A stretch of 22,174 nt of DNA. Source: a virus (taxonomy: Duplodnaviria; Heunggongvirae; Uroviricota; Caudoviricetes). Under the pieces are notes generated by a model that made no database searches, was not told where the DNA came from, and saw only the letters and a program-made list of their open reading frames with translations. The position numbers were made by a program, and so were the translations under genes. Position 1 is the first letter of the stretch. Every line of letters begins with the position of its first letter. The stretch is from IMG/VR virus record IMGVR_UViG_2869924733_000011, positions 1 through 22,174 of that record, one strand, 5' to 3'. Shown piece after piece: positions 8,752 to 18,149 of the stretch.

Positions 8752-9351
8752 TCAGAACTTATAACCGACACCCACGATGAAACCGTCAGTGCGCCAGTCA
8801 CCACTGCCGGAGCCTTCATAAGCAATATCAATGGCCACGGATTCGGTCGGGTTAAACTGCACGCCAGCCCCCCACGCCAGAGACGTGTTGCTGTGGCGAC
8901 CGTCATCACTTCCGGTCAGCACATCGTGCGTTTTCCCCTTGTTGTCAGTTACGCGGATATAATCTCCGGAGAAAGTCGAAACACGGCTGTAAGCCATACC
9001 CGCCATCGCATACGCGCTGAACCATTCATTCACGCGCACAGACGGCCCCGCCATCACGCTGAACCAGCGGTTACGCACGGAATCTTCATGCCAGCGGGTA
9101 TCGCTGTAACGGGTAAGCTGGCGATTCTTGTCTCCTGCATAGCTGAATGACGTCACCAGCCCCAGTGTGTCCGTAAACTCATAACGGTATTTCACGTTAA
9201 TCCCGTTCAGATCATCACTGCCGGGAACGTTCGTCGAGGCATGAAGATACCCCGCGCTCAGCGTGGCCTGCTGCTCAGACGCCCATGCAGGCGCACCGGA
9301 TACGGCCAGACAGATGGCTGCGGACAAAATGGCTGCACAAACTTTACGCAT
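8752..9351 (-). CDS. lom: Lom outer membrane protein (Ail/Lom family)
   Basis: 199-aa ORF with signal peptide [24 protein letters not shown] and body near-identical to lambda Lom as recalled; GAGGT Shine-Dalgarno. Confidence 0.95.
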
Positions 9352-9374
9352 AATTACCTCTCGCTTTTCTGCAA

Positions 9375-9399
9375 TAAAAAAGGCGCCATTTCTGGCGCC
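9375..9399 (-). terminator. Hairpin plus T-run between the J remnant and lom
   Basis: Stem ggcgcca/tggcgcc (9382-9399) followed on the minus strand by TTTTTT. Confidence 0.3.
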
Positions 9400-9420
9400 C
9401 GTATATGGGTTATAAATATT

Positions 9421-10309
9421 TCAACGAATACTGATACCGGAAGCCGCTTTTTTGGTCACAATCACCGTACAATCGGTGATATTCCCTGCCCCCTGATTGC
9501 CTTTCTGGAAAATCTTAAACTCCAGAGTGACGCTTCCCCTGCCACTCGGCATATCAATAACCGCACTGTAACTACCGGGAATGGCCCCTTTAGTTTCTCT
9601 GGATGCGATTAATACGCCGTTTTTGCGAACTTCAAAACCATAACCCGTGTATCGCGTGCCTCCGGGGTTATTTCCGCTCCCCGGATTGTCATACGCTATA
9701 CCGTTAAAGATAATGGGCGGAATAATGATTTGACGGTCAAAGTTATGATCATCGCTGATGGTGACTGTAACCGTCCCGTCTGGTGTTTCCGTGTTACCCC
9801 ACGTACCAGCCTTTTTCGGGAATGATTTGGATACTGTTTTAACAAAATCACCTCTGACCTGATTCGCCTCCAGCATGCCCTTAATCGTACAGTTTTCATT
9901 TATCGTGACGTTGTTGAGCGTCCCGGAGTTCGCATTCACACTGCCACTGATATCCGCATTTTTAGCGGTCAGCTTTCCGTCCGGTGTCAGGGAAAATACC
10001 GGTGGATTTCCACCACTGGTAATGGTGGGGGCCGTCAGGCGTTTGAGGCACACGTCGTTCATGAATATCTGGTTACCCTGCGCCACAAACATCGGCGTTT
10101 CATTCCCGTTTGCCGGGTCAATAAACGCGATACGGTTAGCGGCAACCAGAAACTGGCTCAGTTTGCCTTCCTCCGTGTCCTCCATGCTGAGGCCAATACC
10201 CGCGACATAATGTTTGCCGTCTTTGGTCTGCTCAATTTTGACGCCCCACATGGCATTCCACTTATCACTGGCGTCCTTCCACTCTTTCGAAAACTCCTCC
10301 AGTCTGCTG
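9421..10309 (-). pseudogene. J: Tail tip / host specificity protein J, C-terminal segment (distal to the IS4 insertion)
   Basis: Translation from [82 protein letters not shown] tracks the lambda J C-terminal region. The track ORF's first ~70 aa are read-through into the IS4 terminus, not J. Confidence 0.9.
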
Positions 10310-11735
10310 TAATGCCAGTCAGTTAAGCAACTGACTGGCTCTTTTTCGGGGCTGTGGGGTATTTCCAGGGCCTCTCCTTTACCACTCTCGGGAAGGCCCT
10401 TTCCCTTCTCGTCGGTAATTTCACAAGTTGTCCCATACTTGCAAGATCGCGCATCAGCTCCGGTATACGTCCCGGTGAAACGCCCTGCAATGTCATCAGC
10501 ATTCTCATCACCATTCCGCATGATTCTGAGAAACTCAGTTGATTCGGCCAGTAACCTTTCAGATGTTCCGCCATTTTAATCATCTGATATCTCACCAGAT
10601 TATAAGCCAGTAAGACACCCCACAGCTCTTGCTCCACAAGCTCCGGCTTTTTACTTCTCAGCGTCAGCCTGCTCAGTTGCATCGTCTGTTTTATCTCCCT
10701 GTATCCCAGTTCGATTTCCCAGCGATGACTGTACAGATCCGCCATTTCTCCTCCGGGGAAGCGCATGGCGTCCGTCATCGACGTCAGCAGATGGCAGACT
10801 TTTCCTTTGCGCGTCACGGTCAGCAGGCGGGCTGTCACTTCATTTCCCAGTCCCGGCCACTTTTTTCGTGCCTGCGGGCTGGTTTTCAGCTTCACCAGAT
10901 GATCGCCTTTACCCAGTTTTCTGAGCTCTTCATATTGCGCTCCCTTTCTGAGAGGTATCATCCAGTGGCGGTGTTCTCCCGCCAGGCTCCAGGCATTTAA
11001 CAGTCCCAGTGAGTAATAACCTTTATCCATTAACGTCAGAGTGTTATCGCCGGTTTGTTCTATAAGTTGCTCAGCAAGCTCATTTTCGCTGTTCTTCATC
11101 GTGCCGAAGGCTGCAGCCGTCAGCAGATGGCTGGTCAGTTCCATCTGGCAGACCATTTTGACCTGCGGGTAGAGCGCCGGGTTCCCGGCATGTGTCTGGC
11201 GGGGGAAGGCTGCATCGTTCTCTGGTGTATCCGGTGTGCGCCAGAACACACCATCGATGGCCAGCAGGGTCAGGCCGCACCAGTGCGGATGCGGCGTGGC
11301 GTTATGCCAGAGCTGCGCTGTTTTCGTGAACACGCGGCGGACAGCCTCACTTCCCAGGCGCTGGCGGGCCTGAATAACGGCACTGGGGGCAACGAAGGGG
11401 CGATTGCCCGGCAGCATGATGTCCAGGCGATTCACAATCTGGTGAAGAGGTTCTTTACGCTCAAGCGCCATGCCAACAATACACCAGACCATCATTTCGA
11501 GGGGAAGACGGCGCTTGCGTAGCGTTACAGTACCTGATTCGGCAAGGCAACGAGAGATGAGTTCGGGGTCGAGGTAATCCCCCAGAGAAGTCAGTGGGTT
11601 ACGCAGAGAATCGTAACGGGATACCAGATCAAGAGCCTGTCCAATGTGCATAAAAAAATCCGGAAACAAGTGAGCGTTTCCGGATTCTTACACAGCCACT
11701 GGATCGGTCAACTGATCCTTAACTGATCGGCATTA
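10310..11735 (-). mobile_element. IS4, complete 1426-bp copy with 13-bp target-site duplication, inserted in J
   Basis: Termini TAATGCC... at 10310 and ...GGCATTA at 11735; identical 13-bp direct repeat ctccagtctgctg at 10297-10309 and 11736-11748; contains a full transposase. Confidence 0.9.
10323..11651 (-). CDS. insG: IS4 transposase (DDE)
   Basis: [36 protein letters not shown]...[13 protein letters not shown] matches IS4 InsG as recalled. The track ORF adds 6 spurious codons upstream of the true start at 11651. Confidence 0.9.
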
Positions 11736-12317
11736 CTCCAGTCTGCTGGCGTTATCTTCCGTCCGCTCGACTTTTTCCAGCAGTTCCTTGCCGAGATGCG
11801 TTTTATTGATCAACCCTTTATAAAAATTCAGATAACCTTCCGCATCATCGCTCGCCCGACCGATGGCCTCCACAAATGCCAATTTGCCAACGGTGTTCAC
11901 ACTGCGAACGTAAAAATAATAATCATGGCCCGGCCTGATATTGATACTGGCGGCTATCCAGTACAGCGCCGTGCCAAGATAGCGGGCTGTGGTTTCAACC
12001 TGCCTGATATCCGCAATCCGCTTTTCCGAGAACCAGAACTCAAACTGTACCGTCGGATCATAAACGGCAAGATGCGGCGTGGCGGTTATCTGAAAATACC
12101 CCGGCGTCAGCTCAATCCGCGACGGTGCTGCCGGTGCGGCAATCCGGAACGATACCGATGCCGGATCGCCCTGCTGTCCCCACGCATTTACCGCCCGGAC
12201 CGTCAGCGTGTAACGCCCCAGCGCCAGTTGCCTGAAGCGGTATGTGGTTTCCGTCGTCCGGGCCGTGCTGACCAGCCGCTCACTGCCGTCATCCGCTGCC
12301 ACGGTCAGGCGAAGCAT
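11736..12317 (-). pseudogene. J: J internal segment (proximal to the IS4 insertion), 5'-truncated
   Basis: ...[61 protein letters not shown]...TEDNASRLE matches the lambda J mid-region and joins in frame across the IS4 duplication to EFSKEW. Upstream J sequence is replaced near 12320-12345 by the IS110-family element. Confidence 0.85.
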
Positions 12318-12352
12318 AAAGCTCCCGTTACTTTATTCGTACCCCTTATAAT

Positions 12353-12552
12353 GGGGTGTTAGCCAGCCAGACCCGGCATGATTACTGCCCCCAGTCGTCC
12401 ATGATCCGGGGGTGATGTCACCGGGTCTGGTGGGGCGCTGGTAACCGCTAATAGGGGTCAGGTCAGGCACTTTTGCCGGGACCGTCTGTAACGTGGATGC
12501 CGGTACCTGCTCCCCGTGGTTATCTGGTTAACCCATATACAAGGGAGACAGA
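12353..12552 (+). ncRNA. Candidate IS110-family bridge (guide) RNA in the 5' non-coding leader
   Basis: IS110-group elements encode a structured bridge RNA in the leader upstream of the recombinase. This leader is GC-rich with several inverted repeats (e.g. ccgggggtgatgtcaccgggtctgg) and contains TAATAGGGGTCA (12451-12462) echoing the right-end sequence TAATAGGGGCA (13764-13774). No structure was computed. Confidence 0.35.
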
Positions 12553-13749
12553 ATGACCGAATCCAGCGATTACGAATCCGTCCAGGTCTTTATCGGCGTT
12601 GATGTCGGTAAAGATACGCATCACGCTGTTGCCATTAATCGTTCAGGTAAACGCCTGTTCGATAAAGCATTACCCAACGACGAAAACAAACTCAGGTCGC
12701 TAATATCTGACCTGAAACAACATGGTCAGATACTGCTGGTTGTTGATCAGCCAGCTACCATCGGTGCGTTACCTGTCGCCGTTGCCCGCTCAGAAGGAGT
12801 CCTTGTCGGATACCTCCCTGGACTGGCCATGCGCCGCATAGCCGACTTACACGCCGGTGAAGCTAAAACTGATGCTCGTGACGCTGCCATCATTGCCGAA
12901 GCTGCCCGTACCCTGCCTCACGCGCTACGCACGCTGAAACTGGCTGACGAGCAAATCGCCGAACTCTCCATGCTCTGCGGCTTCGATGATGATCTTGCCG
13001 CACAGACAACGCAGGCCAGCAACCGTATCCGCGGCCTTCTGACCCAGATACATCCGGCACTGGAGCGCGTTCTCGGTCCGAGACTTGAGCACCCGGCGGT
13101 ACTCGATCTTCTCCAGCGATATCCCTCACCAGAAAAACTCGCTTCGCTGGGTGAGAAGAAGCTGGCAGCCCAGCTCTGCAAACTTGCGCCTCGTCTGGGT
13201 AAACGCCTTGCAGCAGACATAGCTCAGGCACTGGCCGAACAAACCGTCGTCGTTCCCGGCACGAATGCCGCTGCCGTAGTACTGCCACGTCTGGCACTCC
13301 AGCTCATCACGCTGCGTAAGCAAAGAGACGAGGTGGCGCTTGAGGTAGAACAGCGAGTTCTTGCTCACCCTCTTTACCCGGTCCTGACCAGTATGCCCGG
13401 AGTCGGTGTCAGGACCGCAGCCAGACTCCTCACCGAGGTCGCCTGCCGCGCCTTCGCCTCTGCCGCACATCTCGCTGCTTATGCTGGCCTTGCGCCGGTA
13501 ACTCGGCGATCCGGCTCGTCAATACGCGGTGAGCATCCCTCGCGACGGGGTAATAAAGCTCTCAAACGGGCGTTGTTCCTGTCGGCCTTCGCCGCGCTCA
13601 GGGATCCGCTCTCCAGGGCTTACTACACCCGCAAAATGAGTCAGGGAAAACGACACAATCAGGCGCTTATCGCCCTGGCGAGACGACGCTGCGACGTTCT
13701 GTTCGCCATGATGCGCGACGGGACTTTTTATACCCCGCAGGGGTCATAA
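12553..13749 (+). CDS. IS110-family transposase/recombinase (DEDD RuvC-like plus Transposase_20 C-terminal domain)
   Basis: 398-aa ORF with GGGAGA Shine-Dalgarno; N-terminal [15 protein letters not shown] and C-terminal [16 protein letters not shown]...[10 protein letters not shown] motifs are typical of IS110-family enzymes. Confidence 0.9.
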
Positions 13750-13774
13750 CATGCTTGACAACTTAATAGGGGCA

Positions 13775-14765
13775 CGTTACGATTCTCTGCGTAACCCACT
13801 GACTTCTCTGGGGGATTACCTCGACCCCGAACTCATCTCTCGTTGCCTTGCCGAATCAGGTACTGTAACGCTACGCAAGCGCCGTCTTCCCCTCGAAATG
13901 ATGGTCTGGTGTATTGTTGGCATGGCGCTTGAGCGTAAAGAACCTCTTCACCAGATTGTGAATCGCCTGGACATCATGCTGCCGGGCAATCGCCCCTTCG
14001 TTGCCCCCAGTGCCGTTATTCAGGCCCGCCAGCGCCTGGGAAGTGAGGCTGTCCGCCGCGTGTTCACGAAAACAGCGCAGCTCTGGCATAACGCCACGCC
14101 GCATCCGCACTGGTGCGGCCTGACCCTGCTGGCCATCGATGGTGTGTTCTGGCGCACACCGGATACACCAGAGAACGATGCAGCCTTCCCCCGCCAGACA
14201 CATGCCGGGAACCCGGCGCTCTACCCGCAGGTCAAAATGGTCTGCCAGATGGAACTGACCAGCCATCTGCTGACGGCTGCAGCCTTCGGCACGATGAAGA
14301 ACAGCGAAAATGAGCTTGCTGAGCAACTTATAGAACAAACCGGCGATAACACTCTGACGTTAATGGATAAAGGTTATTACTCACTGGGACTGTTAAATGC
14401 CTGGAGCCTGGCGGGAGAACACCGCCACTGGATGATACCTCTCAGAAAGGGAGCGCAATATGAAGAGCTCAGAAAACTGGGTAAAGGCGATCATCTGGTG
14501 AAGCTGAAAACCAGCCCGCAGGCACGAAAAAAGTGGCCGGGACTGGGAAATGAAGTGACAGCCCGCCTGCTGACCGTGACGCGCAAAGGAAAAGTCTGCC
14601 ATCTGCTGACGTCGATGACGGACGCCATGCGCTTCCCCGGAGGAGAAATGGCGGATCTGTACAGTCATCGCTGGGAAATCGAACTGGGATACAGGGAGAT
14701 AAAACAGACGATGCAACTGAGCAAGCTGACGCTGAGAAGTAAAAAGCCGGAGCTTGTGGAGCAAG
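13775..14765 (+). mobile_element. Partial IS4 copy (internal ~1 kb), inverted relative to the intact copy; transposase truncated at both ends
   Basis: Translation from YDSLRNPLT... to ...KKPELVEQ is near-identical to the IS4 transposase (R/K difference at LSRLTL/LSKLTL). The first ~125 bp are replaced by the IS110-family element and the last ~300 bp by IS911. Track ORF 13751..14812 is a chimera with both neighbours. Confidence 0.85.
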
Positions 14766-14808
14766 TGAGGTGTACTGGCAATAGCGGACACTACCATTTG
14801 TTCTTTTT

Positions 14809-15627
14809 TTAAGCAGCCATCTGATGATATTTTTCCCTGAAGGCTGCCGGGGAGATATTCCCCAGACGAGAGTGACGACGCTGACGATTGTAGAAAATCT
14901 CAATGTATTCCCGTATTACTGAGATGGCTTCATCCCGGTTATTAAAACGATAGTGGCTCAGGCTCTCATTTTTCAGCGTTCCCCAGAAGCTTTCCATCGG
15001 AGCGTTGTCGTAACAGTTACCTTTACGCGACATTGATGTTTTCAGACCAGACTGCTCCTGTATGACCCGGTAATCGTATGCGCAGTACTGTGAACCTCGA
15101 TCAGAGTGGTGGATTAGCCCGGCAGGTGGGCGCTGGCTCCTGAGCGCCATAAACAGGGCTTTACCTGTCAGCTCTTTTGTCATGCGCTCTCCCATGGCGT
15201 AGCCGACAATTTCGCACGTATAAACATCTTTGATGCCAGCGAGGTACAACCATCCCTCCTGTGTGGCAACATACGTCAGGTCCGCCACCCAGACCTGATT
15301 TGGTGCTGTAGGAGCGAACGTCTGGTTCAACAGATTTGGCGCAACTGGCAGATTGTGGTTCGGGTTCGTAGTCGCTCTGAACTTGCGTTTCTGCTTACAG
15401 CGTAGCCTTAGCTCCTTACGAAGACGTGCCAGTCGGTCACGACCAACGATGATGCCATTCTCTGCCAGCTCCGTCTGGAGCCGCCGGGTTCCATATGTTT
15501 CGCGAGTGCGGATATGTGCCACCTTAATCTCCAGTTTTAGCCGCTCATCACTTTGTTTTCTGTCTGAGGGTTCATGCTGTACCCAGTTGTAATAACCGCT
15601 CCTGGATACACCAAATACCTGACACAT
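14809..15627 (-). CDS. IS911 OrfB (DDE integrase-like catalytic domain); normally expressed as an OrfAB frameshift fusion
   Basis: 272-aa ORF with the IS3-family DDE region (…WVADLTYV…HHSDRGSQY…). Its natural upstream frameshift partner is severed by IS30. Confidence 0.85.
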
Positions 15628-15711
15628 CGCTTCAATGGGAAATTGTTGTCGCCATTGTTCGATTAACGCGTATTTTTCAGCGACTCCTGTGCAAAATACG
15701 CTGTTGTAGAT

Positions 15712-16464
15712 TCAATCTGTCAATGCAACACCCCTTTCAATTATCTCTTTCGGTGTTTTGAACTTCAGTGTCTTTCTCGGTCTGTTGTTTAGCTGAGCAG
15801 CAACCAGATCTAGTTCATGTTGAGTATATTGGGCAAGACATGTCTTTTTAGGAAAGTACTGCCGAATTAGCCCATTTGTGTTCTCATTTGTTCCCCGCTG
15901 CCAAGGACTCTGAGGATCGCAGAAGTAAACTTTAACGCCGGTGCTGACAGTAAATTCTAGATGTCTGGCCAGTTCCATTCCTCTGTCCCATGTCAGTGAT
16001 TTTCTGAGTTCTGACGGTAAACTCAGGAATTTGTCGGTAAGAGCCTGATTTACTGAGACAGAATCTTTGCCCCTGAGTCTAAGGATGATCGTATAACGTG
16101 ATTTTCGGTCTACAAGTGTGGCTATATGAGAGTTTTTTGTACCTGAGACTAAATCGCCCTCCCAATGCCCCAGAGAGCGTCTGTTATCGATATTTCGGGA
16201 ACGTTCGTGAATTGGTGTTCCGTTCACTATGTTAATCGTACCTCTTTCGCCTTTGCGGGTATGACGCCTGCCATGGCGAAGGCTATGCGACCGTCGCAGA
16301 TGCTGTATATTCAGGTGGTGTAGCGCTTCACGGCTACGAAAGTACAGCGTTTTATAAATTGTCTCAGGTGATATTCGCAGCGTTTTTTGACGTGGTTTTG
16401 TTCGCCTTAACCATCCTGATATTTGCTCTGGAGACCATTTCATCTCCAGCTTTTCCAGAAGAAC
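15712..16464 (-). pseudogene. IS30 transposase, C-terminal part
   Basis: VVLLEKLEMKWSPEQISGWLRRTKP...KTPKEIIERGVALTD matches IS30 transposase; the track ORF's first 20 aa are read-through from the IS91-family element. Confidence 0.85.
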
Positions 16465-18149
16465 CACGGCAGCCTGACGGCTGCAAATTGAAAACCGCCC
16501 CTGTTCGTCCTGTTGTTGCCGCACGCTCCGCAGAATATGTATGCTCTGAGGACCTGTTTTATTAAGGACTCATCCTCTTATGTTGACCCGCAAAAGTATA
16601 GATACCGTTCTGCTCTCTGTTGGTGCTGAGAAGCTCTCACAACGTGAATGGGACTGGATGAAGATGCTCAAACCCATGGACCCACCACCTGCGATGGTCG
16701 CGGCCTCCATCCTGGAGCGCCGTGGCGACACAGCAGCCCTTACCCGGCTACAGGATACCGGGGGTTAATCCGTCCTCATGTTGTCCGCTTTTACTCCCCG
16801 CCCGCTGAAACGTCTGTTCACGGCCAACCAGTGCTGGACATCCTTCCTGGATGCGGGCGGTCTGCGCGATATCGAGGTTGAGGCTGTCACAAAAATGCTG
16901 GCCTGCGGCACGCGGATACTGGGCGTGAAGGAATACAACTGCGATAAACCTGAGTGCCCCCACGTCAGATACGTCACTAACTCATGCGGCAGCCGTGCCT
17001 GCCCGTCCTGCGGAAAAAAGGCCACAGACCTGTGGATAGCGACACAGCTGAATCGTCTTCCTGACTGCGACTGGGTACACCTGGTCTTCACCCTGCCGGA
17101 CACGCTGTGGCCGGTGTTCGAAAGCAACCGGTGGCTGCTGAATGACGTGTGCCGTCTGGCGGTGGAGAATCTGCTGTATGCCGCCCGGAAACGGGGGCAG
17201 GAACCCGGTATCTTCTGCGCCATCCACACGTATGGCCGTCGTCTCAACTGGCATCCGCATGTACATGTGTCTGTAACCTGTGGAGGTCTGAATAAGCATG
17301 GTCAGTGGAAAAAGCTGAGCTTCCTGAAAGACGCGATGCGTTCACGGTGGATGTGGAATATGCGGCAGCTGCTTCTGAAAGCGTGGTCAGAGGGGCTGGC
17401 GATGCCGGAGTCGTTGTCACATATCACGACGGAATCACAGTGGAGAAGCCTGGTGCTGAAAGCCGGAGGAAAATACTGGCATGTGTACATGTCGAAAAAA
17501 ACGGCCGGCGGGAGGAATACGGCGCGCTACCTGGGTCGTTATCTGAAGAAGCCGCCGATAGCGGCCTCCCGGCTGGCACATTACAACGGAGGGGCGAGCC
17601 TGAGCTTCCGTTACCTGGACCACAAAACGGGAGAAACGGCGACGGAAACGCTGACACAGCGTGAGCTGGTCGCGAGGCTGAAACAGCACATCCCGGAGAA
17701 GTTTTTTAAGATGGTGAGGTACTTCGGGTTCCTTGCCAACCGGGTGTGTGGAGAGAAGCTGCCGCAGGTGTACCGTGCTCTGGGGATGGATAAACCGGCA
17801 CCGGTGGCGAAGGTGTGCTATGCACAAATGGTGAAGCAGTTCCTGAGTCGTGACCCGTTTGAATGCGTGCTGTGTGGCGGCCGGATGGTATACCGCCGGG
17901 CCATCGCGGGACTGAATGTGGAGGGGCTGAAGAAAAACGCGCGGGATATCAGTCTGCTGAGGTATATGCCGGCCTGACACAGGCTAAGTGTGCCCGGGAA
18001 TCGGTGCAAGTATAAAAAACAGCCTGTTACTGTATAAAAACCGACCATGCAGAGAGAGAAAACACAGGAGTGACAGGGAAAATGGAGAGGTGCACGTGGC
18101 ATAAGGCGCGGACAGGGGTATCGCTTAGTTTTTCAATTTCCTATACGTC
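16465..18149 (+). mobile_element. IS91-family (rolling-circle, HUH) insertion sequence, ~1685 bp, possibly intact
   Basis: Replaces IS30 sequence between ...CGAAAGCTT and GTTCTTCTGG... (minus-strand view), with no target duplication and a GTTC tetranucleotide at one junction, consistent with IS91-family insertion. Contains a 399-aa transposase and a 62-aa upstream ORF (16580..16768). Confidence 0.7.
16778..17977 (+). CDS. IS91-family transposase (HUH-Y2 with N-terminal zinc-binding motif)
   Basis: CGSRACPSCGKK cysteine motif, HUH-like HPHVHVSV, and tyrosine-containing YLGRYLKK motif. Confidence 0.85.
   Translation: MLSAFTPRPLKRLFTANQCWTSFLDAGGLRDIEVEAVTKMLACGTRILGVKEYNCDKPECPHVRYVTNSCGSRACPSCGKKATDLWIATQLNRLPDCDWVHLVFTLPDTLWPVFESNRWLLNDVCRLAVENLLYAARKRGQEPGIFCAIHTYGRRLNWHPHVHVSVTCGGLNKHGQWKKLSFLKDAMRSRWMWNMRQLLLKAWSEGLAMPESLSHITTESQWRSLVLKAGGKYWHVYMSKKTAGGRNTARYLGRYLKKPPIAASRLAHYNGGASLSFRYLDHKTGETATETLTQRELVARLKQHIPEKFFKMVRYFGFLANRVCGEKLPQVYRALGMDKPAPVAKVCYAQMVKQFLSRDPFECVLCGGRMVYRRAIAGLNVEGLKKNARDISLLRYMPA

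What the first reader, a model, noticed from the sequence alone, without database searches (positions are those of the whole stretch)
12344..13774. IS110-family element with a candidate bridge RNA leader and a promoter split across its two ends
The element has no terminal inverted repeats and a ~200-bp structured 5' leader. Its right end carries a perfect TTGACA (13755-13760) 14 bp from the terminus, and its left end carries a perfect TATAAT (12347-12352). Joining the ends in a circle would give a TTGACA-N17-TATAAT promoter reading into the leader and recombinase. The leader also contains TAATAGGGGTCA (12451-12462), echoing the right-end sequence TAATAGGGGCA, as expected if a guide loop base-pairs with the element's own ends. 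That IS110-group elements encode such RNAs is established; that this leader is one is inference.
Basis: partly seen in the sequence, partly recalled or inferred. Interest (0 to 1): 0.7.

Follow-up and report, generated by a model that had tools for sequence, protein, structure and literature searches.

The report
ISEc20 insertion sequence with bridge RNA

Summary
The element is ISEc20/ISSfl4 (IS110 group), most likely spanning 12326-13774. Durrant et al. 2024 already list a bridge RNA at the left end of this IS cluster.

Comparison with 80 related loci supports the bridge-RNA reading. There is a 5' hairpin and two internal loops, each closed by a strongly covarying stem. Four loop segments track the DNA:
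- LTG 12384-12392 tracks the left flank.
- RTG 12407-12414 tracks the right flank.
- LDG 12449-12460 tracks the right end.
- RDG 12488-12498 tracks the left end CGTTAC.

The recombinase keeps the IS621 catalytic residues.

TATAAT (12347-52) sits in the loop of the 5' hairpin, 35 nt or more from TTGACA in any circle, so that promoter is refuted. The conserved TTGACA (13755-60) would pair with TACTTT (12329-34). The spacer is 17 nt if the ends join directly, which is the better-supported case, and 19 nt if a CC is carried along.

Side observation: the right end here is fused to CGTTAC inside an IS4 copy. That matches the RDG rather than the normal poly-C target. The same fusion occurs at 5 of 33 distinct sites.

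The parts
12326..13774 (+). ISEc20/ISSfl4 copy (1449 bp), from CGTTAC... to ...TAATAGGGGCA
   Evidence: RefSeq annotates matching copies as an 'IS110-like element ISEc20 family transposase'. The part common to more than 30 copies with different flanks was defined. Empty sites with sequence landmarks show no duplicated bases. Two poly-C sites suggest +2 C instead.
12324..12325 (+). CC immediately left of the element. This is the target-derived dinucleotide ('core' position) of the left junction.
   Evidence: A poly-C allele of gene J, AAAGCTCCCCCCCTTC, exists in phage contigs. The left-junction dinucleotide varies with the target in relatives: CC, CT, GC, CA, CG.
12326..12331 (+). Right-donor segment (RD) CGTTAC, complementary to the RDG
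   Evidence: CGTTA is invariant or nearly so in the 56 aligned relatives. Its reverse complement GUAACG is invariant in the leader.
12329..12334 (+). TACTTT, candidate -10 of the junction promoter
   Evidence: It is 17 nt from TTGACA if the ends join as GGGGCA|CGTTAC. All 36 distinct relatives have TAC[TC][TAC]T here. The geometry matches IS621, which reads TTGCAG-N17-TATTAT, then 6 nt, then RNA +1. This is inference; no transcript data were available.
12339..12359 (+). 5' stem-loop (GUACCCC-UUAUAAU-GGGGUGU).
   Evidence: Every one of 56 relatives folds a hairpin at this place with a different sequence. The predicted RNA start is about 12341.
12367..12430 (+). Target-binding loop. Its closing stem is 12367-12376 paired with 12421-12430, and it holds a small inner hairpin at 12394-12405.
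   Evidence: The stem is a 10-bp perfect inverted repeat. Its pairs show many compensatory changes across relatives.
12384..12392 (+). Left target guide (LTG) ACUGCCCCC
   Evidence: It is identical in sense to the left flanks. In 27 E. coli/Shigella sites the mean match is 4.6 of 8, against 2.1 in control windows. It covaries with the left flank in variant elements L066, L072, L084 and L052.
12407..12414 (+). Right target guide (RTG) CGGGGGUG. Its reverse complement is CACCCCCG. This copy has 5 G where most copies have 6.
   Evidence: Right flanks match CCCCCCG at 5.6 of 7 positions, against 1.8 in controls. Variants read CACTCTCA, CACACCCC, CACAAGGTG and CACGCCCT, and each matches its own right junction.
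12432..12515 (+). Donor-binding loop. Its closing stem is 12432-12446 paired with 12502-12515, and it holds an inner hairpin at 12461-12483.
   Evidence: The stem covaries, for example CG to UA in 21 sequences at one pair. The inner hairpin is present in nearly all relatives with different sequences, and is weak in one clade.
12449..12460 (+). Left donor guide (LDG) UAAUAGGGG(U)CA
   Evidence: It equals the right end TAATAGGGGCA. It covaries with the right end in relatives: ATAGGGAC, ATAGAGGC, ATAGGAGC.
12488..12498 (+). Right donor guide (RDG) GUAACGUGGAU
   Evidence: It is the reverse complement of CA+CGTTAC and is invariant across the family.
12553..13749 (+). Recombinase gene (398 aa). A ribosome-binding site AAGGGAGA lies at 12541-12548.
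   Evidence: Pfam hits. D17, D65, D107, D110 and S320 align with IS621 D11, E60, D102, D105 and S241. The protein is 100% identical to a Shigella flexneri copy.
13755..13760 (+). TTGACA, outward-facing -35-like box in the right end
   Evidence: TTGAC[AGT] lies 14-15 nt from the ...CA end in 36 of 36 distinct relatives with a complete right end. It is kept here even though it lies beyond the stop codon.
13764..13774 (+). Left-donor segment (LD) TAATAGGGGCA, the right terminus
13755..13783 (+). Hybrid promoter-like site TTGACA-N17-TACGAT, formed by the right end plus IS4 sequence
   Evidence: It is the only promoter-like site found by the consensus scan of 12200-13900 (10 of 12 matches).
13775..14805 (+). 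5'-truncated IS4 copy that starts at its internal CGTTACGATT. It forms a non-canonical right flank that matches the RDG rather than the RTG. Its right limit is approximate.
   Evidence: The intact IS4 in the same window reads GGTATCC|CGTTACGATT. The ORF 13751-14812 is an IS4 transposase lacking its N-terminus.
11733..12325 (-). Fragment of the lambdoid tail-tip gene J. It is the original poly-C target of this copy and provides the left flank.
   Evidence: It matches gpJ in E. coli genomes at up to 98.8%. J alleles at the junction were tabulated.

Best explanation
Window 12326-13774 is a copy of ISEc20/ISSfl4, an IS110-group insertion sequence.

Its 227-nt left end encodes a bridge RNA of about 175 nt (about 12341-12515). 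The RNA consists of a 5' hairpin, a target-binding loop and a donor-binding loop.

- The target-binding loop carries two guides. LTG ACUGCCCCC has the sense of the left half of a poly-C target. RTG CGGGGG(G)UG is complementary to CA+CCCCCC(G).
- The donor-binding loop also carries two guides. LDG UAAUAGGGG(U)CA has the sense of the element's right terminus. RDG GUAACGUG is complementary to CA+CGTTAC, the joined ends.

Joining the ends most likely gives ...TTGACA-ACTTAATAGGGGCA|CGT-TACTTT-ATTCGT-A... This is a TTGACA-N17-TACTTT promoter whose transcript would start at the first base of the 5' hairpin.

What is shown by sequence comparison: the element's identity, its ends, the RNA architecture, the guide/DNA covariation and the conserved -35 box. 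What is inferred: transcription, the exact circle junction and activity.

This particular copy entered a poly-C allele of prophage gene J. Later its right end was joined to an internal CGTTAC of an IS4 copy. That site matches the RDG, not the RTG.
For: Identity:
- RefSeq annotation of more than 1,100 near-identical E. coli copies.
- Pfam domains.
- Catalytic residues aligned with IS621.
- Durrant et al. 2024, Suppl. Table 5, lists 'ISSfl4 | Detected Bridge RNA End: LE | IS110 | ISEc20;ISSfl4'.

Structure:
- In 56 relatives with 68-100% protein identity, the two closing stems are 96.7% paired.
- They show 150 double-change cells against 37 in shuffles (0 of 500 shuffles reach this), and 26.9-55.2% pairing when the partners are slid.
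- All relatives have a 5' hairpin, and nearly all a donor-loop inner hairpin, each with a different sequence.

Guides:
- TAATAGGGG occurs twice in the window against 0.05 expected.
- Cognate guide/DNA pairs beat shuffled pairings: LDG/right end 13 of 10,000, RTG/right flank 13 of 10,000, LTG/left flank 8 of 10,000.
- Explicit compensatory variants appear.
- The target logo from 27 sites matches LTG and RTG.

Ends:
- Empty site L253 reads GATGCCCCC-T-CCCCCG, and the occupied site L254 reads GATGCCCC|IS|CTCCCCCG.
- The 7-C functional tape-measure allele, at 100% identity in 12 or more genomes, equals the occupied 4+3 C.
- The usher gene reading frame fits no duplication.

Promoter:
- The -35 box lies 14-15 nt from the end, and a TAnnnT hexamer lies at +4 of the left end, in all 36 distinct relatives.
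- The geometry is the same as the IS621 junction promoter (PMC11208160, PMC11208158).
Against: - There are no transcript, circle-junction or activity data for this element.
- Rfam has no model that hits the leader, so no independent curated model confirms it.
- Two poly-C sites contradict a direct join. rtcB has 4+7 C when occupied against 9 C when empty, in three assemblies. dgcE has 3+6 C against a 7-C allele. Both suggest the insert carries two extra C, which would make the spacer 19 nt.
- TACTTT matches only 3 of 6 consensus positions and fails the consensus scan's 4-of-6 threshold.
- No natural direct right-end/left-end junction was found. The tandem copies have CCC or CCCC between the ends.
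- If the direct join is right, the donor dinucleotide (CA) differs from the usual target dinucleotide (CC). This departs from the identical CT cores of IS621.
- This copy has a 5-G RTG where most copies have 6 G, so it may be impaired.
Confidence: 0.85

Rival explanations
1. The circle carries one CC between the ends (GGGGCA-CC-CGTTAC, a 1452-bp insert). This would be a shared CC core, like the CT core of IS621. TTGACA and TACTTT would then be 19 nt apart (20 nt in most relatives), so the junction promoter is weak or uses another -10.
For: - rtcB: 4+7 C when occupied against 9 C in many empty genomes at 100% identity, the same in three assemblies.
- dgcE: 3+6 C when occupied against a 7-C allele.
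- CCC is shared at both junctions of most copies.
- The RTG then reads in the IS621 arrangement: handshake positions CA, core CC, then the right target (PMC11208158).
Against: - Landmark sites show no added bases: the T-marked site 4, the tape-measure 7-C allele present while no 5-C allele was found, and the usher reading frame.
- In L037, L052 and L088 the left-junction dinucleotide (CC) differs from the right-junction one (CA or CG).
- The LDG and RDG read ...GGGG(U)CA and CA-CGTTAC contiguously.
- The right-end|CGTTAC junctions are in register only with a cut after CA.
- A 19-20 nt spacer conserved across two phyla is implausible.
- Poly-C tract lengths are unstable.
Confidence: 0.22
2. One reading: the element starts at 12344, and a circle creates TTGACA-N17-TATAAT.
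For: Both hexamers are perfect and are present at the stated coordinates.
Against: - More than 30 copies with unrelated flanks share the 18 nt from 12326 to 12343.
- With the true ends the spacer is 35 nt (37 nt if a CC is carried along).
- TATAAT is the loop of a hairpin whose stem covaries, and it is replaced by unrelated loops in many relatives.
Confidence: 0.02
3. TATAAT (12347-52) is the -10 of a weak promoter inside the left end. It would let integrated copies express an RNA lacking the 5' hairpin but containing both loops.
For: - Loops of the form nA[TC]AAT (GATAAT, AATAAT, GACAAT, TACAAT) recur in the Burkholderiales and E. coli relatives.
- IS621 loci are weakly transcribed in the integrated state (PMC13626964 abstract).
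Against: - There is no -35-like hexamer 16-18 nt upstream and no TG extension.
- The consensus scan does not call it.
- The motif is absent from the actinobacterial and several proteobacterial relatives.
- Its conservation could equally reflect protein contacts with the hairpin loop.
Confidence: 0.1
4. The leader is only a structured 5' UTR that controls recombinase translation or stability. It is not a guide RNA.
For: It lies directly upstream of the ORF with no predicted terminator between them, so it is probably part of the mRNA leader.
Against: - Four unpaired segments change together with the element's own ends and with its insertion sites in independent lineages. A UTR model does not predict this.
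- The architecture equals that of the experimentally proven IS621 RNA.
Confidence: 0.03

Closest known systems
IS621 recombinase and bridge RNA (IS110 group; Durrant et al. 2024, PMC11208160; Hiraizumi et al. 2024, PMC11208158)
   Same: - The RNA lies in the left end, upstream of a DEDD/Ser recombinase.
- The RNA is about 175 nt with a 5' hairpin and two pseudo-symmetric internal loops.
- LTG and LDG have the sense of the left halves, and RTG and RDG are complementary to the right halves.
- There are no terminal inverted repeats and insertion is site-specific.
- An outward -35 sits in the right end and a -10 just inside the left end, 6 nt before the RNA start.
- The catalytic residues are conserved.
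   Different: - Protein similarity is only 36% identity over the Tnp domain.
- The target is a poly-C tract rather than a REP-type ATCAGGCCTAC sequence.
- The dinucleotide at the crossover seems to be CA in the donor but CC (or CT) in targets, not an identical CT in both.
- The RDG and RTG both end in UG.
- Nothing has been tested experimentally for ISEc20.
ISSfl4/ISEc20 entry and its ISBma3/IS110 protein cluster (ISfinder names as used in Durrant 2024, Suppl. Tables 1 and 5)
   Same: - The window protein is 99-100% identical to Shigella and E. coli ISEc20 copies and about 80% identical to ISBma3-type proteins.
- The published table already records a bridge RNA detected at the left end.
   Different: - The published table gives no guide assignments, target, ends or promoter for this element. 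Those were worked out here.
- This copy has a 5-G RTG and a non-canonical right flank.
IS1111-group elements with seekRNA or a right-end bridge RNA (for example ISEc11; Durrant 2024, Suppl. Table 5; seekRNA from my own knowledge of Siddiquee et al. 2024)
   Same: They belong to the same recombinase superfamily and use RNA-guided choice of target and donor.
   Different: In the IS1111 group the RNA lies downstream of the gene in a long right end with long sub-terminal repeats. Here it lies upstream, in the left end.
Excision and 'half-match' or top-strand-transfer pathways of IS110 elements (PMC13626964; bioRxiv 10.1101/2025.10.25.684509; title and abstract opening only of 10.64898/2026.08.31.748434)
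   Same: - Left junctions keep the target dinucleotide and right junctions keep CA, as expected from top-strand transfer.
- The right end is joined to sites that match only one guide half.
   Different: Those studies used IS621 and a Caloranaerobacter element in assays. Here the evidence is purely comparative, and the mechanism of the right-end|CGTTAC joints is inferred.

Membership tests
IS110 family insertion sequence (IS110 group) | DEDD (RuvC-like) N-terminal domain plus a Tnp domain with a catalytic serine | tested here: met
   PF01548 at 6.9e-49 and PF02371 at 7.1e-22. D17, D65, D107, D110 and S320 align with IS621 D11, E60, D102, D105 and S241.
IS110 family insertion sequence (IS110 group) | No terminal inverted repeats, with a long non-coding left end and a short right end | tested here: met
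   No inverted repeat links the termini. The left end is 227 nt (12326-12552) and the right end is 25 nt (13750-13774).
IS110 family insertion sequence (IS110 group) | Sequence-specific insertion without a conventional target-site duplication | tested here: met
   27 sites share ...GCCCC|CCCCCC.... Landmark empty sites show no added bases. Two poly-C sites show +2 C, so the exact register stays open.
Bridge RNA (IS110-group type) | A 5' stem-loop followed by two internal loops, each closed by a stem and holding an inner hairpin | tested here: met
   RNAalifold and pair counts on 56 sequences give 96.7% paired cells and 15 pairs with changes on both sides, and no shuffle of 500 reaches the covariation score. 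Per-sequence hairpins were checked.
Bridge RNA (IS110-group type) | Target-binding loop: LTG identical to the left target top strand and RTG complementary to the right target top strand | tested here: met
   Target logo. Variants L066, L072, L073, L084, L052, L037 and L088 change guide and flank together. Permutation tests give 8 and 13 of 10,000.
Bridge RNA (IS110-group type) | Donor-binding loop: LDG identical to the end of the right end and RDG complementary to the start of the left end | tested here: met
   The TAATAGGGG repeat. LDG and right end covary through GGG, GGA, AGG and GAG variants. The RDG GUAACG and the left end CGTTAC are both invariant, so that pair is consistent but carries no covariation signal.
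Bridge RNA (IS110-group type) | An identical core dinucleotide in donor and target, read by all four guides | tested here: inconclusive
   Position 8 is C on both sides. Position 9 is A at right junctions (about 90%) and C, T or another base at left junctions. The alternative register gives CC on both sides. RTG and RDG both carry UG at the equivalent position.
Bridge RNA (IS110-group type) | [quoted passage not shown] | tested here: inconclusive
   The -35 is conserved 14-15 nt from the end and TAnnnT lies at +4 of the left end in 36 relatives. The spacer is 17-18 nt for a direct join and 19-20 nt with CC. No circle junction sequence was found.
Bridge RNA (IS110-group type) | The RNA is expressed, binds the recombinase and is required for recombination | not testable with these tools
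   No expression or biochemical data are available. Rfam 15 gives no match in the leader.

The most novel reading that the evidence does not exclude
In this IS110 subfamily the donor and target dinucleotides at the crossover differ (CA against CC or CT). Natural insertions would therefore record which strand was transferred. Left junctions keep the target bases and about 90% of right junctions keep CA, which would be comparative evidence for integration mainly by top-strand transfer.

In addition, the right end can be joined, in register, to genomic CGTTA(C/T) sites that match only the right donor guide. This would produce adjacent deletions or rearrangements such as the one that truncated IS4 in this window. 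It may be favoured by a one-base-shorter RTG: 3 of 5 such joints have 5 G against 1 of 28 others.
Probability: 0.35. Interest if true: 0.5.

Novelty: already known. Interest (0 to 1): 0.28.

Why it matters
For the finding as posed, the result is a clean annotation. It is a catalogued IS whose bridge RNA was already flagged in the literature. It now has explicit coordinates for the guides, the poly-C target, the ends and the likely junction promoter, and the wrong boundary and promoter are corrected.

This matters practically because ISEc20/ISSfl4 is common. More than 1,100 complete E. coli genomes carry a near-full-length copy, some genomes have many copies, and it is also found in Shigella. 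It preferentially hits C-tracts in prophage tail genes and in chromosomal genes such as rtcB, dgcE and an autotransporter.

The side observations could give mechanistic hints about strand choice and off-target half-site recombination in bridge recombinases, which are being developed as genome editors. Those observations are the unequal donor and target dinucleotides, the right-end|CGTTAC fusions with a before/after pair, and the tandem arrays. They are comparative and need experiments.

Tried and rejected
- **Rfam.** A gathering-threshold scan of the whole window and a permissive E-value scan of 12250-13850 found no bridge-RNA family. The only hit was a chance miRNA match.
- **Natural circle junctions.** A 100-nt joined query against 5,426 E. 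coli genomes found only tandem copies with CCC or CCCC between the ends. Three partial hits turned out to be normal left junctions. A degenerate junction pattern in the metagenome collection gave one chance hit.
- **L007 as an empty-site test.** Its flanks come from two C-tracts about 124 bp apart in K-12, so it is a deletion and its reading-frame result was discarded.
- **L001 as an empty-site test.** No genome joins its two flanks. The same was true for L010.
- **An A-to-C difference at the window's left junction.** I first read it as evidence on the crossover register. It is explained by natural J alleles instead.
- **Crossover register.** I tried several models: core CC, core CA with a direct join, core CA with CC belonging to the left end, and a 4-nt core. 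None fits every site. I report the two main ones.
- **Analogy with IS621 linker lengths.** The stems differ too much for this to settle the register.
- **Literature.** Two 2026 preprints that are probably relevant (on half-match recombination and on boundary mapping) are not held and could not be read. Searches for ISEc20 and ISSfl4 gave only census-type mentions.
Full report
**What is there**

The ORF at 12553-13749 (+) encodes a 398-aa protein with the two Pfam domains of IS110-family recombinases: DEDD_Tnp_IS110 at 6.9e-49 and Transposase_20 at 7.1e-22. Megablast against 5,426 complete E. coli genomes finds near-identical DNA annotated as 'IS110-like element ISEc20 family transposase'. A place covering at least 80% of the query occurs in 1,120 genomes. 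One Shigella flexneri copy is 100% identical at the protein level.

Aligned with IS621, residues D17, D65, D107, D110 and S320 fall on the catalytic D11, E60, D102, D105 and S241 (roles from PMC11208158). Supplementary Table 5 of Durrant et al. 2024 has the row 'ISSfl4 | Detected Bridge RNA End: LE | IS110 | ISEc20;ISSfl4'. A left-end bridge RNA for this IS cluster is therefore already on record, although no details are given there.

**Checking the observation**

These parts hold:
- TAATAGGGG occurs exactly twice in the window, at 12449-57 and 13764-72. Chance expectation is 0.05. The leader copy lies 2 nt left of the coordinates given.
- No terminal inverted repeats exist.

The left boundary is wrong. 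Nine copies, and later more than 30 copies with unrelated flanks, share everything from CGTTACTTTATTCG (12326) onward. Only C residues typical of the target precede it. TATAAT is thus 21 nt inside the element.

**Architecture of the leader**

I fetched 80 related loci from Beta- and Gammaproteobacteria and Actinobacteria, with 68-100% protein identity. I aligned 56 distinct leaders.

- RNAalifold and explicit pair counting show two long closing stems with many compensatory changes.
- 96.7% of cells are paired. There are 150 double-change cells against 37 in shuffles, and 0 of 500 shuffles reach this. Pairing falls to 26.9-55.2% when the partners are slid.
- In window coordinates the stems are 12367-76 paired with 12421-30 (10 bp perfect) and 12432-46 paired with 12502-15.
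- Each stem encloses a large internal loop with a small inner hairpin (12394-12405 and 12461-83).
- A 5' hairpin (12339-59) precedes them. Every relative folds a hairpin there with a different sequence.
- TATAAT is the loop of that hairpin. Many relatives have unrelated loops.

This is the layout of the IS621 bridge RNA: a 5' stem-loop, a target-binding loop and a donor-binding loop, 177 nt in all.

**Guides**

Four single-stranded segments behave as guides.

- **LDG.** UAAUAGGGG(U)CA (12449-60) has the sense of the right terminus. In relatives the LDG and the right end change together: ATAGGGAC, ATAGAGGC, ATAGGAGC.
- **RDG.** GUAACGUG (12488-95) is the reverse complement of CA+CGTTAC. Both sides are invariant, so they are consistent but uninformative.
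- **RTG.** The reverse complement of CGGGGG(G)UG is CACCCCC(C)G. Right flanks of 27 E. coli/Shigella sites match CCCCCCG at 5.6 of 7 positions, against 1.8 in controls. Variant elements read CACTCTCA, CACACCCC, CACAAGGTG and CACGCCCT, and each matches its own right junction.
- **LTG.** ACUGCCCCC (12384-92) matches the left flanks at 4.6 of 8 positions, against 2.1 in controls. It covaries in L066, L072, L084 and L052.

Permutation of cognate against shuffled guide/DNA pairs gives 13, 13 and 8 of 10,000. I regard the bridge-RNA reading as established at the level sequence comparison can reach.

**Exact ends and the circle junction**

This was the hardest part, because the target is a C-tract.

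Evidence for a direct join, where the insert is exactly CGTTAC...GGGGCA:
- The empty site L253 reads GATGCCCCC-T-CCCCCG. The occupied L254 reads GATGCCCC|IS|CTCCCCCG. The T is a landmark that leaves no room for a duplicated CC.
- The in-frame 7-C allele of a tape-measure gene is present at 100% identity in at least 12 genomes. That equals the occupied 4+3 C. No 5-C allele was found.
- An interrupted usher gene keeps its reading frame only with 0 or 3 bases removed.
- The LDG and RDG read GGGG(U)CA and CA-CGTTAC contiguously.
- In L037, L052 and L088 the dinucleotides at the two junctions differ.
- The right-end|CGTTAC joints described below are in register only with a cut after CA.

Evidence for a carried CC:
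- rtcB has 9 C when empty but 4+7 C when occupied, in three assemblies.
- dgcE has 3+6 C when occupied, against a 7-C allele.

C-tract lengths are demonstrably unstable. I put about 0.75 on the direct join.

One consequence follows. Left junctions carry the target's dinucleotide, mostly CC, and right junctions carry CA. That is what top-strand transfer would leave (compare bioRxiv 10.1101/2025.10.25.684509).

**Promoter**

TTGAC[AGT] lies 14-15 nt from the ...CA end in all 36 distinct relatives with a complete right end. In ISEc20 it is retained even though it lies beyond the stop codon. TAC[TC][TAC]T lies at +4 of the left end in all of them.

With a direct join the window element gives TTGACA-N17-TACTTT (13755-60 and 12329-34). 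Six nt follow, and then comes A12341, the first base of the 5' hairpin. IS621 has TTGCAG-N17-TATTAT, then 6 nt, then bridge RNA +1. With a carried CC the spacer is 19 nt.

TACTTT is a weak -10 (3 of 6 positions, but with the key A2 and T6). There is no transcript evidence.

The consensus scan of 12200-13900 finds one site only: TTGACA-N17-TACGAT (13755-83). It is formed by the right end and the adjoining IS4 sequence.

**This copy's flanks**

The left flank is a fragment of the lambdoid tail-tip gene J. IMG/VR contigs show J alleles AAAGCTC-ACCCCC, -ACGCCC, -ACACCC and a poly-C allele -CCCCCC (8 of 120 matches tallied). The left junction AAAGCTCC|CGTTAC is therefore an ordinary insertion into the poly-C allele.

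The right flank is not J. It is the interior of an IS4 copy, starting at CGTTACGATT. The intact IS4 in the same window reads GGTATCC|CGTTACGATT.

The same kind of joint, GGGGCA|CGTTA(C/T), occurs at 5 of 33 distinct flank pairs:
- this window (IS4);
- L002 (an IS66-type element);
- L011 (mdtA);
- L249;
- L226.

About 0.03 would be expected by chance. The native sites have CC, TA or CG before CGTTAC, so only the RDG-complementary hexamer is shared.

L226 shares its left flank with L231 and with L235/L288, whose right flank is the normal CCCC(C)TGTAAC. This is a before/after pair and shows that the joint is a secondary event on the right-end side. Three of the five joints carry a 5-G RTG, against 1 of 28 others (Fisher p = 0.007, with small and possibly non-independent numbers).

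My inference is an excision-like recombination between the right junction and a pseudo-left junction recognised only by the RDG. This would delete or invert the DNA in between. The mechanism is not shown.

**Comparison and novelty**

The system works like IS621 and passes the sequence-testable membership criteria for an IS110-group element and bridge RNA. Two criteria remain inconclusive: the identical core and the junction promoter. Function is untestable here.

The differences are the poly-C target, the probable CA/CC inequality at the crossover, and low protein similarity to IS621 (36% over the Tnp domain).

The IS is catalogued and its left-end bridge RNA was already detected in the 2024 study. 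The finding is therefore already known in kind. Its value is a corrected, detailed annotation. The strand-signature and half-site observations are the only parts that might be new. They overlap with current work that I could read only in part.

Noticed in passing
window 13764-13790; also L002, L011, L226, L249: The right end of ISEc20 is joined directly to genomic CGTTA(C/T) at 5 of 33 distinct sites. That hexamer is complementary to the RDG, not the RTG. The native sites share nothing else. L226 and L231/L288 form a before/after pair at one insertion site.
   Followed up: partly
window 12407-12414; L002, L226, L092: The G-run of the RTG is 5 G in this copy where most copies have 6 G. The 5-G variant is enriched among the right-end|CGTTAC joints (3 of 5 against 1 of 28, Fisher p = 0.007). 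The G-run varies from 5 to 8 among copies.
   Followed up: partly
window 13755-13783: The outward TTGACA of the right end plus IS4 sequence forms TTGACA-N17-TACGAT. This is the only promoter-like site the scan finds in 12200-13900, and it reads into the truncated IS4 transposase gene.
   Followed up: no
window 10250-11750 (- strand) and 13775-14805 (+ strand): Two IS4 copies lie in inverted orientation around the J fragment and ISEc20. The first is intact and is inserted in gene J, supplying the stop codon of the J-fragment ORF. The second lacks its 5' end, and its 3' side abuts an IS3-family transposase ORF (14809-15627, - strand).
   Followed up: partly
window 1-10500 and 15700-18000: The surroundings are a decayed lambdoid prophage. 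It carries an ipaH-type E3 ligase gene (2189-3832; NEL and LRR domains), tail fibre genes (6561-8693), lom (8752-9351) and the C-terminal part of J (9421-10521). It also holds an rve-domain integrase ORF (15712-16524) and an IS91-family transposase (16778-17977).
   Followed up: partly
window 1882-2061 (-) and 922-1125 (-): There are two Rfam matches above the gathering score: CssrB (chromosome-encoded Shigella sRNA B, 230 bits) and IS009 (129 bits).
   Followed up: no
L091 (plasmid pO177B1) and L092 (E. coli SMN197SH3 chromosome): These loci hold head-to-tail tandem arrays of ISEc20, two copies and at least three copies respectively. The junctions read GGGGCA-CCC-CGTTAC and GGGG-CCCC-CGTTAC. 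They look like re-insertion into the C-tract at the right junction of a resident copy.
   Followed up: partly
L094 (K-12 autotransporter gene) against L007: The two flanks of the ISEc20 copy in L007 come from two different 8-C tracts about 124 bp apart in K-12. That copy is therefore associated with a deletion between two target-like sites.
   Followed up: partly
L097-L099 (dgcE), L105-L223 (gene J), L255-L300, L301-L313: Several insertion sites exist as allele series in which CA+C-run (CACCCCCC, which equals the reverse complement of the RTG) alternates with a pure C-run. In J the A/C difference would be synonymous if the assumed frame (not checked) is right. Whether any of these alleles are excision footprints is unknown.
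   Followed up: no
L006, L095, L096 (rtcB): The rtcB insertion has 4+7 C around the IS in three assemblies, although empty alleles have 9 C. This is unexplained if the insert is exactly CGTTAC...GGGGCA.
   Followed up: partly
L087 1918-1982: In Brachybacterium the right end of one element is followed by CC and then by the left end of a different, diverged relative. This is a nested or adjacent insertion at the same C-tract.
   Followed up: no
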